Shown here piece by piece: positions 1-25,172 of a DNA stretch of 43,509 bases; position 1 is the stretch's first letter, and each line of letters opens with the position of its first letter. The notes under the pieces are model-generated. The model searched no databases and was not told the origin of the DNA. It saw nothing but the letters and a program-made list of their open reading frames with translations. Origin of the DNA: a virus (Duplodnaviria > Heunggongvirae > Uroviricota > Caudoviricetes); the IMG/VR virus record IMGVR_UViG_2703718810_000003. One strand, 5' to 3'. A program made the position numbers and the translations under genes.

Positions 1-906
1 ATACAGCGCCCACTTGTCCACATCCACCGCCCCCAGGCGTTTTCCCATGCCGTAGCGCGGGTGGGTCAGCATGTCCCACAGGCACCAGGCCGGGTTATTG
101 CTGTATGCCGGTTTCAGACTCCCGTCCCAGATACCGCTGTAGGTGCGTTTTTCCGGGTCATAGTTTGACGGCACCTGAATGATGCGGCCGCGGATATGGT
201 AGTTCACCACCATCTGCTGACCACCGAACTGCTCCGCATCCACCTGCAGCCCCACAATGGCCGTGTTCGGGTAGCACTGTTTCACATCGATGATTTCGGT
301 GTATGACGACCACAGCGTTCTGTTCTGCAGCTGGTCCGTGGTGCTGTCCGCCGTCACCCTGACCATCCGGATGTTAAAGGGGCGCTCAGGGAGATTATTC
401 AGAATCACCGACGTCAGGTACTGCGAGGTGGTCTTGCCGTTAATGGTGACATCCTTCTCCGTCACCCAGTTACCGTTACGCTCAAGCTGAATCAGCAGGC
501 GGACAGAAGAGGGATTACGGTCACCCTTTGAGGTGGTCTCCACCAGTGACTGCACCCCGAAGGTGACCCGCAGACGGTCAATGTTCGCTGACGTGATGGT
601 GCGCGTCACCGGCTTTGCCTTCGTCACCTCCACGCCCAGTGCGGTTTCTGCCCCGGTGGACTCAAAGCCTTCCGGCGGTGTCTGCTCCTGCTCCCCGGCA
701 CGCCAGACGGCGGTCACACCGTGTATCACGGGATTACCGTCCGTGTCCGTCAGCGGGGTTTTGTTCACCAGAATACTCTGCAGTCCCTTCACCGGGCCTT
801 CCACCGGTCCCTCACCGATGGCATCAATCACGCTCATCATCTGCGTGGATTTGAGATTGTCCTTCGCCTCACGCGGTGTGTGCCCCTTGCCGCCCCCTTT
901 ACCCAC
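1..906 (-). CDS. J: Tail tip / host specificity protein J, N-terminal 302 codons; 3' end beyond window edge; GTG start
   Basis: Reverse-strand translation VGKGGGKGHTPREAKDNLKSTQMMSVIDAIGEGPVEGPV...WCLWDMLTHPRYGMGKRLGAVDVDKWALY matches my recollection of the lambda J N-terminus nearly residue for residue; GGAGAGGGGG RBS precedes the GTG at 906..904. Not in ORF track because no stop in window. Confidence 0.85.
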   Translation of the reverse strand, partial: MGKGGGKGHTPREAKDNLKSTQMMSVIDAIGEGPVEGPVKGLQSILVNKTPLTDTDGNPVIHGVTAVWRAGEQEQTPPEGFESTGAETALGVEVTKAKPVTRTITSANIDRLRVTFGVQSLVETTSKGDRNPSSVRLLIQLERNGNWVTEKDVTINGKTTSQYLTSVILNNLPERPFNIRMVRVTADSTTDQLQNRTLWSSYTEIIDVKQCYPNTAIVGLQVDAEQFGGQQMVVNYHIRGRIIQVPSNYDPEKRTYSGIWDGSLKPAYSNNPAWCLWDMLTHPRYGMGKRLGAVDVDKWALY

Positions 907-946
907 TCTGTCCCCCTCTCCTGTCTGATGTCTGAATCTGTTTATG

Positions 947-979
947 CCCAAAAACAACAGGCACCCCAGAGGGTGCCTG
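947..979 (-). terminator. Intrinsic terminator-like hairpin immediately upstream of the J ribosome binding site
   Basis: Minus strand reads CAGGCACCC-TCTG-GGGTGCCTG followed by TTGTTTTTGGG; 9-bp GC-rich stem. Confidence 0.45.
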
Positions 980-990
980 TGTCATGACGG

Positions 991-1147
991 AATAAAAATT
1001 CTGAGTTTATTCACATTTCCGGCAATTGCCTGTAGCCGCAATAATGGCGCTGCGTTACTTTTTTGATGCCTGAAAAATAACTCCATAACGTTAATCTTCA
1101 TCGTTCTCTCCCGCAGCTCCGCTGATTCTGCGGGATTTTTTTATCCC
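991..1147 (+). repeat. Repeat unit 1 of a tandem ~155-bp element in the I-J intergenic region
   Basis: Unit 1 and unit 2 align over most of their length (ttattcacatttc..., gtagcc.caataatg.c.ctgcgttac, catcgttctct, ctgcgggattttttt); each ends in a plus-strand hairpin plus T-run. Confidence 0.75.
1110..1142 (+). terminator. Rho-independent terminator ending repeat unit 1
   Basis: CCCGCAG-(11 nt loop)-CTGCGGG then A plus TTTTTTT on the plus strand; minus strand has no U-run after the hairpin. Confidence 0.6.
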
Positions 1148-1218
1148 TTAAACCCGGCACGATGTTATCTGTCTTCTTCCACAGATACCCGGCTGGCTTC
1201 CGCTCCCCCGCTACCGGA

Positions 1219-1377
1219 TAAAAAGTCTGAATTTATTCACATTTCTGCAAATTACCCGTAGCCACAATAATGACACTGCGTTACATTTTTACAGGTAAAT
1301 AAAAATAAAACGCTAACAGGTTAGTCAACATCGTTCTCTTCACGCAGCTACAGAGCACTGCGGGATTTTTTTTATTT
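1219..1377 (+). repeat. Repeat unit 2 of the tandem I-J intergenic element
   Basis: Paralogous to unit 1; small ORFs within the two units are not conserved in frame, arguing against protein coding. Confidence 0.75.
1341..1373 (+). terminator. Rho-independent terminator ending repeat unit 2
   Basis: CGCAG-(10 nt loop)-CTGCG then GGA plus TTTTTTTT on the plus strand; abuts the stop codon of I. Confidence 0.55.
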
Positions 1378-2058
1378 TCATCCCCGCCCGATAACCACCA
1401 CTTTCCCGTCACCGCCCTCATCACGGGTGCTGATGTCCTGGGATATCCGTCGTGAGCCAACCAGCATTTCACCGTAAGGCACCGGCATCGGGTTCCCCTG
1501 GGCAATCATGTTATCCAGCGAGGAAAAGTACGTGTTCTGTCTGCCGTTATCCGTTGCCCTGTATTCCGGTGTTTTGGGCTTCGGGGCCAGCATCTGAGCC
1601 ACACCACCCAGTATCATGCTGGCACCCAGTGAGAACAGCATCGTGGTGGCAGTCAGCCCTCCGGCACTCAGGGCTACGCCCCACAACGCCATCGTTGCAC
1701 CGGCGGTGAAGAAAGAGCCCACGATGGCTGCTGCCCCCAGCACCACCTGAAAAACACCATTTCCCCCGGCCCCTGCCAGCCGCGGTACAATATGAATCAC
1801 GGCCCTCCCGCTCAGCGGTTCATGAAGACGGGCATACACCGCCTCCGGCGCGGTATCCTCACCGGCAATACGTATCTGGTACCAGCCTTCGTTCATCTGA
1901 CAGCGGAATCCCGGCACCTGCAGCGACAGGGCACGGATGGCCTCCGCTGCCGTGTTCACATACAGGCTGATGCGGCGACCAAATCGTTGTAAATCCCCGT
2001 GAAGGCAGATGCGGACCAGTGGCGGTGACGCCAGACAGAATGCGTTCGTCGTTGCCAT
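1378..2058 (-). CDS. I: Tail assembly protein I
   Basis: 226 aa; LYGDLQRFGRR, AGEDT...VIHIVPR, TYFSSLDNM, VVVIG motifs match lambda gpI as I recall it; overlaps K 3' end as in lambda. Confidence 0.8.
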   Translation of the reverse strand: MATTNAFCLASPPLVRICLHGDLQRFGRRISLYVNTAAEAIRALSLQVPGFRCQMNEGWYQIRIAGEDTAPEAVYARLHEPLSGRAVIHIVPRLAGAGGNGVFQVVLGAAAIVGSFFTAGATMALWGVALSAGGLTATTMLFSLGASMILGGVAQMLAPKPKTPEYRATDNGRQNTYFSSLDNMIAQGNPMPVPYGEMLVGSRRISQDISTRDEGGDGKVVVIGRG

Positions 2059-22948: not shown

Positions 22949-22978
22949 TTGCGCAATGTGATTACTGTAAGGTATTAT
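22949..22978 (+). promoter_or_regulatory. Sigma70-like promoter (TTGCGC-N18-TATTAT) of plus-strand unit 1
   Basis: -35 at 22949..22954, -10 at 22973..22978; same architecture repeated at 23881. Confidence 0.45.
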
Positions 22979-22984
22979 TAGGGC

Positions 22985-23053
22985 GCTGAATAAATTACTT
23001 CACGTTTTGTTATTTATTCCTTGCCAACCGCTCTTCCCTGGAGCGGTTTTTTT
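22985..23053 (+). ncRNA. Candidate ~70-nt small RNA (plus-strand unit 1), antisense to the nanS-p leader
   Basis: Promoter to terminator distance ~70 nt; U-rich body (auuacuucacguuuuguuauuuauuccuugcc) conserved with unit 2; terminator CCGCTC-TTCCCTG-GAGCGG plus T7. Confidence 0.4.
23028..23053 (+). terminator. Intrinsic terminator of plus-strand unit 1
   Basis: 6-bp GC stem plus 7 T. Confidence 0.6.
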
Positions 23054-23058
23054 GCATG

Positions 23059-23084
23059 TAAAAAGGCTCCTGCAATGAGGAGCC
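23059..23084 (-). terminator. Minus-strand terminator downstream of structured element 1
   Basis: GGCTCCT-loop-AGGAGCC followed by U-run on minus strand; convergent with plus-strand terminator at 23028. Confidence 0.45.
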
Positions 23085-23112
23085 TGGATGTATGCCTAAT
23101 CTCTGTATACTA

Positions 23113-23226
23113 CATGGTGCCGGGTGCCTCCCGGTGAGTTCAGTATCAGCACCTGAACCCGCACAGAAAGGATAGAGTAGAAACACCTGCGCTGATATGC
23201 CCCTCCGCTCAGGGGGATTCACCATG
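23113..23226 (-). ncRNA. Structured RNA-like element, copy 1 (strand assignment tentative)
   Basis: CATGGTG...CACCATG closing helix enclosing hairpins CCGGGTGCCTCCCGG and CCCCTCCGCNCAGGGGG; three paralogous copies in window. Confidence 0.45.
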
Positions 23227-23321
23227 CAGAACTTTTTTAACAACTCCCCGTCAGACAGGCAAGCATCAACCATCTGAACTGTGAGGGATTTAACATTTAA
23301 CAACACAGCCTTTTCCCGCAC

Positions 23322-23346
23322 AAAAAAAGCCCCTCAGGAGAGGGGC
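23322..23346 (-). terminator. Minus-strand terminator downstream of structured element 2
   Basis: GCCCCTC-AGGA-GAGGGGC followed by 7 U on minus strand. Confidence 0.55.
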
Positions 23347-23373
23347 CGATCGCTGTGTATACACCATAAGCAG

Positions 23374-23485
23374 CATAGTGCCGGGTGCCTCCCGGTAGAT
23401 TCAGCCTGACTACTGAATCTGCGTATTGTGACCATCGCTATGGAGACCATGTCAGACGCCCCTCCGCACAGGGGGATTCACTATG
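23374..23485 (-). ncRNA. Structured RNA-like element, copy 2
   Basis: Closing helix here is CATAGTG...CACTATG: both strands changed compensatorily relative to copies 1 and 3. Confidence 0.45.
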
Positions 23486-23723
23486 CTGGCTCGTTTTTAC
23501 AAGACTTCCATCAATCAGACAATAGTCCATCAACCGAATTGTGAGTCATTTAACATTTCCATGAGGTAACTGATATCCAGCTAACAATCATCTGCAATGG
23601 ACGAAGCCAGTTCCAGAACTTGCCCACACTACAGCAACAACCACTGCATTCCAAAAATGGAATTTTGGGAGATTACTTCTGCAAACAGCTACCGATAAAT
23701 ATATCCCTGATTGCCTGCGCAGT

Positions 23724-23880: not shown

Positions 23881-23910
23881 TTGCGCAGAGTGATTACTAT
23901 GGGGTATTAT
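23881..23910 (+). promoter_or_regulatory. Sigma70-like promoter (TTGCGC-N18-TATTAT) of plus-strand unit 2
   Basis: Paralogous to 22949..22978. Confidence 0.45.
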
Positions 23911-23916
23911 TCGCCA

Positions 23917-23984
23917 GCTGAAATATTACTTCACGTTTTATTGTTTATTCCTTGCCGCCCGCGTCTCCCAGCGCGGGCTTTTTT
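23917..23984 (+). ncRNA. Candidate ~70-nt small RNA (plus-strand unit 2)
   Basis: Same U-rich body as unit 1; terminator stem sequence entirely different (GCCCGCG/CGCGGGC) but structure retained. Confidence 0.4.
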
Positions 23985-23990
23985 GTCCAT

Positions 23991-24014
23991 AAGAAAGCCC
24001 CTCCAGAGAGGGGC
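23991..24014 (-). terminator. Minus-strand hairpin downstream of structured element 3
   Basis: GCCCCTC-CAGA-GAGGGGC followed by UUUCUU on minus strand. Confidence 0.4.
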
Positions 24015-24042
24015 TGAAGCCGCATTTCTGTATCACCATGAA

Positions 24043-24167
24043 CATGGTGCCGGGTGCCTCCCGGTGAGTTCAGCCCGGTGACACTAAACCCGCGTATTCT
24101 CGCTTACGATCATCAAAGAGATCATACCGTTCACCAGTCGCCCCTCCGCACAGGGGGATTCACCATG
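24043..24167 (-). ncRNA. Structured RNA-like element, copy 3
   Basis: Same conserved 5' and 3' blocks as copy 1 with a different central insert. Confidence 0.45.
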
Positions 24168-24303
24168 CGAAATTTTTTTAACAAATGCCCAGTCTGACAG
24201 GCAACTGTCAACTTACTGAATTGTGAGGAATTTAACACTTCACAGCACAATATCTTTCCAGCACCCCAAAATCATCTGGACAGGAGAAAATCTTCTCCCC
24301 CAG

Positions 24304-25010: not shown

Positions 25011-25087
25011 TGGACCGCCATCGAGGACTCGAACCCCGCGCAGCCAGCTCCGAAGGCTGGCGCTCTATCCCGATGAGCTAATGGCGA
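25011..25087 (-). tRNA. tRNA-Arg (anticodon UCG by my reading of the loop CUUCGGA)
   Basis: Cloverleaf foldable by hand: 7-bp acceptor (U1-G72 wobble), D-arm GCTC/GAGC with GG, anticodon stem CCAGC/GCTGG, T-arm CGGGG-TTCGAGT-CCTCG, encoded CCA. Confidence 0.8.
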
Positions 25088-25096
25088 TATGTGATA

Positions 25097-25172
25097 TGGT
25101 GGCCCTTGCTGGATTTGAACCAGCGACCTGGCGATTATGAGTCGCTCGCTCTCACCACTGAGCTAAAGGGCC
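25097..25172 (-). tRNA. tRNA with CAU anticodon (Ile2-lysidine type like ileX/ileZ, or Met)
   Basis: GGCCCTTTAGCTCAGTGGTGAGAGCGAGCGACTCATAATCGCC...TTCAAATCCAGCAAGGGCCACCA; near-identical to my recollection of E. coli ileX. Confidence 0.85.

What the first reader, a model, noticed from the sequence alone, without database searches (positions are those of the whole stretch)
907..1377. Two tandem terminator-bearing ~155-bp units between tail genes I and J
Lambda-like tail operons have I and J adjacent. Here a 470-bp non-coding gap holds two paralogous units, each ending in a plus-strand hairpin plus T-run (1110..1142, 1341..1373), so any transcript is antisense to the tail operon. Small ORFs inside the units are not conserved between copies, which argues for RNA or regulatory function. 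A separate minus-strand hairpin plus U-run (947..979) sits just before the J ribosome binding site, which would attenuate J expression unless antiterminated.
Basis: seen in the sequence. Interest (0 to 1): 0.55.

Follow-up and report, generated by a model that had tools for sequence, protein, structure and literature searches.

The report
Tandem PasB-type prophage small-RNA genes
The 470-bp gap between tail genes I and J holds two diverged tandem copies of a known Hfq-dependent prophage small-RNA gene (EcOnc22/PasB family); the RNA is ordinary, but the tandem array and a probable CRP-controlled promoter appear not to have been described.

Summary
Window 907-1377 lies between J (GTG at 906) and I (1378-2058), both on the minus strand. 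It holds two direct-repeat cassettes, each ending in a plus-strand hairpin plus T-run.

Both cassettes are genes of a known sRNA family found at this locus and on this strand:
- PasB of EPEC E2348/69: 83 nt, seen on Northern blots, Hfq-dependent.
- By my coordinate mapping, EcOnc22/23/24 of EHEC Sakai.
- Predicted RNA 1 (about 1065-1142) is 76/78 identical to the Sakai Sp15 copy.
- RNA 2 (about 1291-1373) is a mosaic paralogue, 68% identical to RNA 1, with a different pre-terminator segment and a uniquely weakened terminator stem.

New here:
- The I-J junction carries one to four such cassettes. The inter-cassette junction occurs in 79 of 5,426 complete E. coli genomes.
- Every cassette has an invariant TCTGA-N6-TCACATTT box about 60.5 bp upstream of the predicted start. 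I read this as a class I CRP site; that is inference.
- The minus-strand hairpin plus U-run before J (947-980) is real. Its variants pair only in the tail-operon sense RNA.

Verdict: new member of a known kind, modest interest.

The parts
1..906 (-). 5' part of tail tip gene J (start GTG 906-904)
   Evidence: Pfam FNIII-A_GpJ, E 6e-42. The translation begins VGKGGGKGHTPREAKDNLKST.
907..946 (-). J leader with Shine-Dalgarno (sense strand AGACAGGAGAGGGGGACAGA directly before GTG)
   Evidence: Read from the sequence. The same leader is present in most related gaps.
947..980 (-). Intrinsic-terminator-like hairpin on the tail-operon sense strand: 10-bp stem 980-971/966-957, then UUGUUUUUGGG
   Evidence: Found by the terminator scan. 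Energy -24.2 kcal/mol, z = -3.8. It is conserved in front of four different J leaders. Variants include a C-G to U-A compensatory change and U.G intermediates that pair only in the sense-strand RNA.
997..1018 (.). Cassette 1 CRP-like site AATTCTGAGTTTATTCACATTT (core TCTGA 1000-1004, N6, TCACA 1011-1015; centre 1007.5)
   Evidence: Matches 9/10 of TGTGA-N6-TCACA. Both pentamers are invariant and the N6 is variable in 64-65 distinct cassettes.
1040..1061 (+). Cassette 1 promoter elements: TATAAT-like AATAAT at 1040-1045, and TAnnnT (TACTTT) at 1056-1061, taken as the -10 hexamer
   Evidence: T, A and T of TAnnnT are kept in every aligned cassette. The hexamer lies 7 nt upstream of the published 5' end of PasB in E2348/69. 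The TATAAT-like box is lost in some cassettes. The generic sigma-70 scan found no promoter.
1065..1142 (+). sRNA 1, EcOnc22-type member of the PasB family (predicted +1 at 1065-1068; about 75-78 nt)
   Evidence: 76/78 identical to the Sakai Sp15 copy and 74% identical to E2348/69 PasB. Covariance model hit 1058-1142, although this sequence was part of the model.
1110..1142 (+). Rho-independent terminator of sRNA 1 (CCCGCAG / CTGCGGG, then A and T7)
1143..1212 (.). Inter-cassette spacer
   Evidence: The stretch from terminator through spacer to the next promoter (1125-1290) is found in 79 of 5,426 E. coli genomes. Homologous spacers occur in 3- and 4-cassette arrays.
1223..1244 (.). Cassette 2 CRP-like site (TCTGA 1226-1230, N6, TCACA 1237-1241; centre 1233.5)
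1266..1287 (+). Cassette 2 promoter elements: AATAAT at 1266-1271 and TACATT at 1282-1287
   Evidence: In register with cassette 1.
1291..1373 (+). sRNA 2, a mosaic paralogue (predicted +1 at 1291-1294; about 80-83 nt)
   Evidence: 68% identical to sRNA 1, 66% to PasB, 85% to the third unit of 4-cassette arrays and 94% to unit 2 of strain LZSFT34. Its terminator loop is the one found on the I-proximal unit of the longer arrays.
1341..1373 (+). Terminator of sRNA 2 (CACGCAG / CTGCGGG, then A and T8), weakened by one stem mismatch
   Evidence: It is the only one of about 37 distinct terminator variants with this mismatch: -7.6 kcal/mol against -12 to -19. The closest relative, LZSFT34, has CCCGCAG.
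1378..2058 (-). Tail assembly gene I (stop codon at 1378-1380, 4 nt beyond the T-run of terminator 2)
   Evidence: Pfam Lambda_tail_I, E 3e-14; ORF list.

Best explanation
The gap holds two tandem, independently transcribed genes for Hfq-dependent small RNAs of the EcOnc22/PasB family. They form a 'moron' cassette array carried by a lambdoid E. coli prophage at the I-J junction.

Each cassette has three parts: an upstream regulatory box, a weak sigma-70 promoter, and a 75-85 nt RNA ending in a Rho-independent terminator. The RNAs are made from the plus strand, convergent with and antisense to the late tail operon. That operon is silent in the lysogen, and in the lysogen the RNAs act in trans on host and accessory-genome mRNAs together with Hfq.

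What is shown and what is inferred:
- Shown here: homology, anatomy, and the variable cassette number.
- Taken from the literature for homologues, not for this copy: expression, size, Hfq dependence and trans partners.
- Inferred (probability about 0.5): the invariant TCTGA-N6-TCACATTT box is a CRP-cAMP site centred about -60.5, so the RNAs are made when glucose is absent.
- Inferred: the two RNAs differ in their presumed target-pairing stretch, so they are not redundant. RNA 2 may be less well terminated or less stable.
- Inferred: the sense-strand terminator at 947-980 stops transcription that lacks Q modification before it reaches J. Q-modified late transcription would read through it.
For: Same locus and strand as validated sRNAs.
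- PasB lies at NC_011601 1466343-1466261, between I and J. It is 83 nt with Hfq-dependent stability (PMC8550237 main text and table S6; annotation).
- The Hfq-CRAC peaks EcOnc22, 23 and 24 all fall in I-J gaps of Sakai Sp15, Sp14 and Sp11 on the antisense strand.
- Correcting for the assembly-version offset, calibrated at AsxR as +135 to +142, places these peaks on the RNA body.

Sequence identity.
- RNA 1 is 76/78 identical to the Sp15 copy and 74% identical to PasB. RNA 2 is 66-70% identical to either.
- BLAST and a covariance model find exactly these two copies in the window.

Cassette anatomy is conserved over 64 distinct units.

Array size varies.
- In a sample chosen by similarity to the I protein (77 loci), 59 have one cassette, 8 two, 1 three, 2 four, and 7 carry sodC.
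- Complete genomes show arrays A-C, A-C-D and A-E-C-D.
- The inter-cassette junction occurs in 79 of 5,426 genomes.

CRP reading.
- 65 of 65 terminator-defined units carry the box.
- The two pentamers have zero entropy while the N6 varies.
- A match with at most one mismatch occurs 5 times in the 43.5-kb window against 1.5 expected, twice here in register.
- The published 5' end of PasB lies 7 nt after the invariant TAnnnT, which puts the site centre at about -60.5.
- PasB is higher in overnight LB than in DMEM, the opposite of the CRP-repressed Spf.
Against: - There are no expression data for this strain or for RNA 2.
- The terminator of RNA 2 is uniquely weakened, and its predicted RNA folds no better than shuffles. 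It may be decaying.
- The generic promoter scan finds no sigma-70 promoter in 700-1600.
- The left CRP half-site is TCTGA, not TGTGA. The centre at -60.5 is 1 bp off the canonical -61.5 and depends on an RNA-seq-estimated 5' end in another strain.
- A conserved TATAAT-like box 16 bp further upstream could be the real -10. That would put the box at a non-canonical -44.5.
- LB versus DMEM also differs in growth phase, so the expression pattern is not specific to CRP.
- Equating EcOnc22-24 with PasB rests on my coordinate-shift calibration. The PasB paper lists no EHEC homologue for PasB.
Confidence: 0.8

Rival explanations
1. The RNAs act mainly in cis. Each is perfectly complementary to the I-J intercistronic part of the late tail transcript. 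After induction they would pair with it and change its processing or J expression. The sense-strand terminator at 947-980 would add a second brake on J.
For: - The cassettes are always convergent with the tail operon and always at this junction.
- The terminator of the last cassette ends 4 nt from the I stop codon.
- A conserved sense-strand hairpin plus U-run sits between the cassettes and J.
Against: - PasB has 37 RIL-seq interactions, all in trans, in a lysogen where the late operon is off (PMC8550237).
- The locus tolerates 1-4 cassettes, replacement of the promoter half by sodC, or loss of the hairpin in the 345-bp class. That argues against a dosage-sensitive role in tail assembly.
- Phage lambda makes tails without any of this (established knowledge: its I-J gap is about 60 bp).
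Confidence: 0.1
2. Only cassette 1 is a working gene. Cassette 2 is a recombination remnant or a decaying pseudogene with no function of its own.
For: - Cassette 2 is a mosaic: its body matches the third unit of the longer arrays and its terminator loop matches their last unit. This is as expected from a deletion or recombination within a longer array.
- Its terminator stem carries a mismatch seen in no other copy.
- Its fold z-score is about 0.
Against: - Its CRP-like box, TAnnnT hexamer and T8 tail are intact and in register.
- The same two-cassette array with an intact stem is kept in other genomes: 13 genomes hold the junction at 95-99% identity.
- The body type recurs in 3- and 4-cassette arrays.
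Confidence: 0.25
3. The conserved box is not a CRP site. It would be the binding site of another host or phage factor, or an UP-like element, and the cassettes would respond to a signal other than carbon source, for example stationary phase.
For: - The left half is TCTGA in all copies.
- The spacing to the start is uncertain.
- The only expression contrast available mixes medium and growth phase.
- No paper I read mentions a promoter or CRP for PasB.
Against: - The pattern is two invariant pentamers, a variable 6-bp centre and A/T-rich flanks. This matches the CRP consensus AAATGTGA-N6-TCACATTT at 15 of 22 positions, counted by hand.
- Prophages of different types share the box. That argues for a host factor rather than an immunity-specific repressor.
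Confidence: 0.4
4. The units encode small proteins rather than RNAs.
For: ORFs of 39-74 codons overlap the units.
Against: - No ORF is shared between the two units or with the E2348/69 and Sakai copies.
- Indels of 1-20 nt are scattered through the body in the family alignment.
- The homologues are Hfq-bound RNAs of about 85 nt.
Confidence: 0.02

Closest known systems
PasB sRNA of EPEC E2348/69 (Pearl Mizrahi et al. 2021, PMC8550237; distribution study by Zhu, Shabalina and Storz 2026, bioRxiv 10.64898/2026.05.13.724894)
   Same: - Same locus (I-J gap) and same strand, antisense to the tail operon.
- Same upstream box, same TAnnnT hexamer and the same terminator stem CCCGCAG/CTGCGGG plus U-run.
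- Similar length.
   Different: - Only 74% (RNA 1) and 66% (RNA 2) identical, and the stretch before the terminator differs.
- PasB was described as a single gene with low diversity. The smallest reported distance between two copies on one chromosome is 28,355 bp.
- Here two diverged copies are 226 bp apart, and related loci hold up to four.
EcOnc22, EcOnc23 and EcOnc24 of EHEC O157:H7 Sakai (Tree et al. 2014, PMC4104026, table S2)
   Same: - RNA 1 is 76/78 identical to the Sp15 copy.
- The peaks lie in I-J gaps on the antisense strand.
- EcOnc22 is about 85 nt on Northern blots and destabilised without hfq.
   Different: - Sakai has one cassette per gap (240-bp gaps).
- The targets are listed as unknown (PMC7873438).
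- The link between EcOnc22-24 and PasB is my inference.
AgvB and AsxR prophage 'anti-sRNAs' (Rfam RF02702, RF02703)
   Same: Short Hfq-binding RNAs carried as cargo by lambdoid prophages, with A-rich 5' parts and conserved terminators.
   Different: - They sit at a different locus, the moron site downstream of Q and PR'.
- They are 51-60 nt.
- There is no Rfam match in 800-1500 even at E <= 10.
Tandem paralogous sRNA genes OmrA/OmrB (E. coli) and PrrF1/PrrF2 (Pseudomonas)
   Same: Adjacent duplicated sRNA genes, each with its own promoter and terminator, sharing a regulator site and diverging in part of the RNA.
   Different: - Those are core-genome genes fixed at two copies.
- Here the array is prophage cargo, varies from 1 to 4 copies and is mosaic.
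Prophage morons such as sodC
   Same: - An autonomous transcription unit inserted between two late genes and oriented against them.
- sodC occupies this same junction in relatives.
   Different: The cargo here is non-coding RNA.

Membership tests
EcOnc22-24 / PasB prophage sRNA family | Gene lies between tail genes I and J, on the strand antisense to the tail operon | tested here: met
   I at 1378-2058 (-), J at 1-906 (-), both cassettes on +. PasB and the EcOnc22-24 peaks have the same arrangement.
EcOnc22-24 / PasB prophage sRNA family | Sequence homology to experimentally detected members | tested here: met
   RNA 1 is 97% identical to the Sakai Sp15 copy and 74% to PasB. RNA 2 is 66-70% identical to those and 85-94% to array members. 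BLAST hits cover the full unit length.
EcOnc22-24 / PasB prophage sRNA family | Rho-independent terminator CCCGCAG-loop-CTGCGGG followed by at least six U | tested here: met
   Unit 1 is perfect. Unit 2 has one stem mismatch but eight U.
EcOnc22-24 / PasB prophage sRNA family | Transcript of about 83-85 nt whose stability depends on Hfq | not testable with these tools
   Known only for the homologues (PMC8550237 table S2: log2 fold change -6.8 in the hfq mutant; PMC4104026 table S2). The predicted lengths here are 75-83 nt.
Class I CRP-dependent promoter | 22-bp site matching AAATGTGA-N6-TCACATTT | tested here: met
   TCTGA-N6-TCACATTT at 1000-1018 and 1226-1244 matches 9/10 of the core. The box is invariant in 65 of 65 units.
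Class I CRP-dependent promoter | Site centred near -61.5 (or -71.5, -82.5 and so on) from the transcription start | tested here: inconclusive
   The centre is at -60.5 if +1 is 7 nt after TAnnnT, which agrees within 1 nt with the RNA-seq 5' end of PasB. No start site has been mapped for these copies. If the TATAAT-like box is the -10, the centre is at -44.5.
Class I CRP-dependent promoter | Transcription depends on CRP-cAMP | not testable with these tools
   The only evidence is indirect. PasB is higher in overnight LB than in DMEM, the opposite of Spf.
AgvB/AsxR anti-sRNA family | Match to Rfam RF02702 or RF02703, and location at the PR' moron site | tested here: not met
   No hit in 800-1500 at E <= 10. 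The same search method found AsxR in Sakai.
Phage moron | Autonomous unit with its own promoter and terminator, present or absent or exchanged between otherwise collinear phages | tested here: met
   Close relatives carry 1-4 cassettes or sodC at the same junction. The terminator is shown by sequence; the promoter is inferred.

The most novel reading that the evidence does not exclude
The I-J junction of E. coli lambdoid prophages would be an expandable slot for small-RNA cassettes. One to four paralogues share a single catabolite-sensing (CRP) promoter module and terminator but carry different target-pairing bodies. Recombination between co-resident prophages shuffles them. The sRNA repertoire that a prophage gives its host would then be modular and carbon-source-gated. 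PasB diversity and copy number would have been underestimated by BLAST-based surveys.
Probability: 0.4. Interest if true: 0.5.

Novelty: new member of a known kind. Interest (0 to 1): 0.3.

Why it matters
Prophage-borne sRNAs rewire host regulation in pathogenic E. coli, yet the function of PasB/EcOnc22 is still unknown. Four points follow from this work.
- The EHEC (EcOnc22-24) and EPEC (PasB) RNAs belong to one family.
- The family has at least five body types.
- The genes occur in arrays of one to four cassettes.
- All cassettes share an invariant CRP-like box.

Together these give a regulatory hypothesis that can be tested directly. They also give natural seed variants for mapping targets. 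They show that surveys seeded with one variant miss most of the family, and that a covariance model is missing from Rfam.

Tried and rejected
- Rfam. Nothing in 907-1377 at gathering thresholds, and only chance-level hits at E <= 10. The family is not in Rfam 15.
- My first guess was an AgvB/AsxR anti-sRNA. I rejected it because the locus differs and there is no model match.
- Pattern scan of 185,579 species-representative genomes. The 34 hits were mostly in unrelated taxa and looked like chance terminator matches, and none was in an Enterobacteriaceae genome. One exception: a contig labelled Streptomyces (L020) carries a bona fide E. coli-type I-J gap and is probably contamination. The scan says only that the exact motif is rare outside E. 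coli prophages.
- RNAalifold on the 24-sequence alignment gave no consensus structure, because the units with the second terminator type were misaligned. I tabulated terminators directly instead.
- I first misread pasB log2FC -6.79 as a medium effect. It is the hfq mutant against wild type. The corrected reading weakens the CRP support to a qualitative statement.
- A junction query against 50,697 phage records found no match. Arrays are therefore seen so far only in prophages.
- Small ORFs as coding genes: rejected as not conserved.
- A covariance model search of the window for further copies found none. The next hits have E >= 1.

Full report
**What is there.** The window is an E. coli STEC-type lambdoid prophage. 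Its first 25 kb is about 95% identical to prophages in complete E. coli genomes. The tail operon runs on the minus strand in the order H, M, L, K, I. Gene I is at 1378-2058 and matches Pfam Lambda_tail_I. J starts at GTG 906 and matches FNIII-A_GpJ. The 471 bases at 907-1377 between I and J are non-coding.

**Check of the observation.** Direct repeats are confirmed. Positions 987-1064 and 1213-1290 are 83% identical, and 1073-1109 and 1303-1339 are 73% identical. CTGCGGGATTTTTTT is identical at 1128-1142 and 1358-1372. The repeat period is 226-230 bp and the conserved core is about 156-161 bp.

Both units end in a plus-strand hairpin plus T-run:
- In unit 1, CCCGCAG at 1110-1116 pairs with CTGCGGG at 1128-1134, followed by seven T.
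- Unit 2 has CACGCAG at 1341-1347 and so carries one stem mismatch. It folds at -7.6 kcal/mol, against -12 to -19 for every other family member I collected.

The minus-strand hairpin is also real. It has a 10-bp stem at 957-980 followed by UUGUUUUUGGG, folds at -24.2 kcal/mol and has z = -3.8 against shuffles.

**Identification.** Rfam has no family here. BLAST shows the cassette at this junction in 93 phage records, mostly Stx-converting, and in 784 of 5,426 complete E. coli genomes.

The literature supplies the identity:
- PasB of EPEC E2348/69 is an 83-nt sRNA seen on Northern blots. It is strongly reduced in an hfq mutant (log2 fold change -6.8). Its coordinates are NC_011601 1466343-1466261, minus strand (PMC8550237). 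In that genome the I gene ends at 1466255 and J starts at 1466496, both on the plus strand. PasB therefore occupies the I-J gap on the antisense strand.
- The PasB Northern probe is the complement of the terminator motif seen here. An alignment of the gaps from the window, E2348/69 and VT1-Sakai confirms homology along the whole unit.
- In EHEC Sakai, the Hfq-CRAC peaks EcOnc22 (Sp15; about 85 nt; destabilised without hfq), EcOnc23 (Sp14) and EcOnc24 (Sp11) are given on the plus strand (PMC4104026 table S2). All three fall inside I-J gaps whose tail genes are on the minus strand.
- That table uses an older assembly version. I calibrated the offset at AsxR: Rfam places it at 1268629-1268681 in the current record, against a peak at 1268494-1268542, an offset of +135 to +142. 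With this offset the three peaks sit on the RNA body rather than on the J leader.
- Predicted RNA 1 of the window is 76/78 identical to the Sp15 copy and 74% identical to PasB. RNA 2 is 66-70% identical to either.

I conclude that EcOnc22-24 and PasB are one family, and that the window carries two members. The PasB paper lists no EHEC homologue for PasB, so this link is my inference.

**Anatomy of a cassette.** I collected I-J gaps from IMG/VR in two ways: by a terminator pattern and by similarity to the I protein. I added five complete genomes. An alignment of 64 distinct units shows the following parts, in order:
- An A-rich stretch.
- TCTGA, six variable bases, then TCACATTT.
- A variable 21-bp spacer.
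- A TATAAT-like box, which is lost in some units.
- GCTGCG.
- A hexamer TAnnnT, whose T, A and T are kept in every aligned unit.
- A T-rich start region.
- A variable, A-rich body.
- A semi-conserved stretch, AACTCCTTAA..GTTAATCTTC.
- The terminator.

The two pentamers are the only blocks with zero entropy. Because I had used TTCACATTT to cut out units, I repeated the test with units defined only by their terminators. All 65 of 65 carry T[CG]TGA-N6-TCACA at a near-constant distance.

**Promoter and the CRP inference.** The published 5' end of PasB lies 7 nt downstream of the invariant TAnnnT (TAGTGT in E2348/69). This makes TAnnnT the likely -10 hexamer. The predicted starts in the window are then near 1065-1068 and 1291-1294.

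The box matches the CRP consensus TGTGA-N6-TCACA at 9 of 10 core positions, with consensus-like flanks. It is centred at 1007.5 and 1233.5, that is about -60.5, next to the canonical class I position of -61.5 (established knowledge of CRP promoters).

Three further points bear on this:
- Matches with at most one mismatch occur 5 times in the window against 1.5 expected, and two of them lie here in register.
- PasB is reported to be higher in overnight static LB than in mid-log DMEM. Spf, which CRP represses, is about five-fold higher in DMEM. This fits CRP activation, but growth phase is a confound.
- Neither paper on PasB mentions a promoter or CRP.

I put CRP control at about 0.5.

**Arrays.** Gap lengths fall into classes: about 240 bp (one cassette), 421-489 bp (two), 686-715 bp (three) and 907-929 bp (four).

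In the sample chosen by the I protein, the 77 loci with both gene ends divide as follows:

| Content of the I-J gap | Loci |
|---|---|
| One cassette | 59 |
| Two cassettes | 8 |
| Three cassettes | 1 |
| Four cassettes | 2 |
| sodC gene replacing the promoter half, with a PasB-like body and terminator as its 3' end | 7 |

None of these loci has a bare junction. The sample is redundant, because many of the contigs come from E. coli isolates.

In complete genomes, the junction from terminator through spacer to the next promoter (1125-1290) occurs in 79 of 5,426 genomes. Thirteen of these hold it at 95-99% identity. It is absent from 50,697 phage records.

I distinguish at least five body types:
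- A: Sakai and window unit 1.
- B: E2348/69 PasB.
- C, D and E. Type E has a different terminator, CTCCCGT...ACGGGAG.

Array orders seen are A-C, A-C-D and A-E-C-D. Comparing the two terminator types shows a compensatory change (C-G to U-A) at the fifth stem pair.

Window unit 2 has a type C body fused to the terminator loop otherwise found on the I-proximal unit of the longer arrays. This points to a recombination or deletion within a longer array.

The 2026 distribution study reports that two pasB copies on one chromosome are never closer than 28,355 bp, and that PasB has low diversity. Its searches were seeded with the E2348/69 variant, to which types A and C are only 66-74% identical.

**The hairpin before J.** The stem is kept in front of four unrelated J leaders. 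Variants include GGCAUCC/GGAUGCC, a double compensatory change, and single changes that give U.G in the tail-operon sense RNA. In the antisense RNA those single changes would give A.C mismatches.

With its U-run it should terminate RNA polymerase that lacks Q modification before it reaches J. It should be read through during Q-antiterminated late transcription (established knowledge of lambda). This is inferred and not tested. The hairpin is absent from the 345-bp and sodC classes, so it is not essential.

**Mechanism, with shown and inferred steps.**
- Shown here: homology, position, strand, terminators, conserved box, variable copy number.
- Shown in the literature for homologues: expression in lysogens, size, Hfq dependence, 37 trans interactions.
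- Inferred: start sites, CRP control, non-redundancy of the two RNAs, weaker termination of RNA 2, and the insulating role of the sense-strand terminator. On non-redundancy, the pre-terminator stretches differ: GUUAAUCUUCAUCGUUCUCUC against GUUAGUCAACAUCGUUCUCUUC, and the CUCC motif is absent from RNA 2.

**Rivals.** These are a cis-antisense role on the late I-J transcript, cassette 2 as a decaying remnant, a regulator other than CRP, and small proteins. Each is weighed in its own section.

**Verdict.** The element belongs to a known sRNA family, so its novelty is limited to new members in a tandem arrangement. The side results (the link between the EHEC and EPEC RNAs, the cassette arrays, the CRP-like box) are useful but incremental.

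Noticed in passing
window 23054-23255, 23320-23515, 23985-24197 (minus strand): Three copies of the sRNA STnc100 (Rfam RF02076; 121-169 bits), the family related to PasD. Each is preceded about 25 nt upstream by TGTGAG-N5-TTTAACA (23280, 23540, 24222). This matches TGTGA-N6-TCACA with one mismatch.
   Followed up: partly
window about 22950-23053 and 23890-23985 (plus strand): Two paralogous short units, each convergent with an STnc100 copy. They share TATTAT...TTACTTCACGTTTT..TTATTCCTTGCC and end in a GC hairpin plus T-run. They look like further prophage sRNA genes. Only chance-level matches were found in Rfam (OmrA-B at E 0.3) and with my model (E 1-6).
   Followed up: partly
window 25014-25172 (minus strand): Two adjacent tRNA genes (72.5 and 48.4 bits) next to the STnc100 cluster, as is usual downstream of Q in Stx-type prophages.
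   Followed up: no
L191 2638-3488 (also L220, L225, L231, L236, L242, L245): In 7 of 77 related loci the I-J gap is 854 bp. It carries a Cu,Zn superoxide dismutase gene (sodC-like ORF, HVHEKGNC motif) oriented against the tail operon. It replaces the CRP-like box and spacer, and is followed by a PasB-like body and terminator. The sRNA there may be made from the sodC 3' UTR.
   Followed up: partly
L131 gap (345-bp class; 36 of 191 collected gaps share this J-proximal leader): This gap class lacks the sense-strand hairpin. Between J and the PasB cassette it has about 190 bp containing another plus-strand hairpin plus T-run (AAACCCCGGTATCAGCAGATACCGGGGTTTTCTTT). This may be a further small transcription unit.
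   Followed up: no
L073 (apparent 1,153-bp gap): The junction holds about 900 bp of AT-rich extra DNA and a duplicated fragment of the J 5' end upstream of a normal hairpin plus cassette. This is another sign that the site is an insertion and recombination hot spot.
   Followed up: no
L020 (NZ_JBHTEB010000006.1, 3,408-bp contig labelled Streptomyces flavalbus): The contig carries an E. coli-type I-J gap with a PasB cassette. It is almost certainly contamination of that assembly.
   Followed up: no
window 1341-1347: The CAC (instead of CCC) in the unit 2 terminator stem is unique among about 150 terminator instances examined. The closest relative, strain LZSFT34, has CCC. It could be a recent mutation or a sequencing error.
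   Followed up: yes
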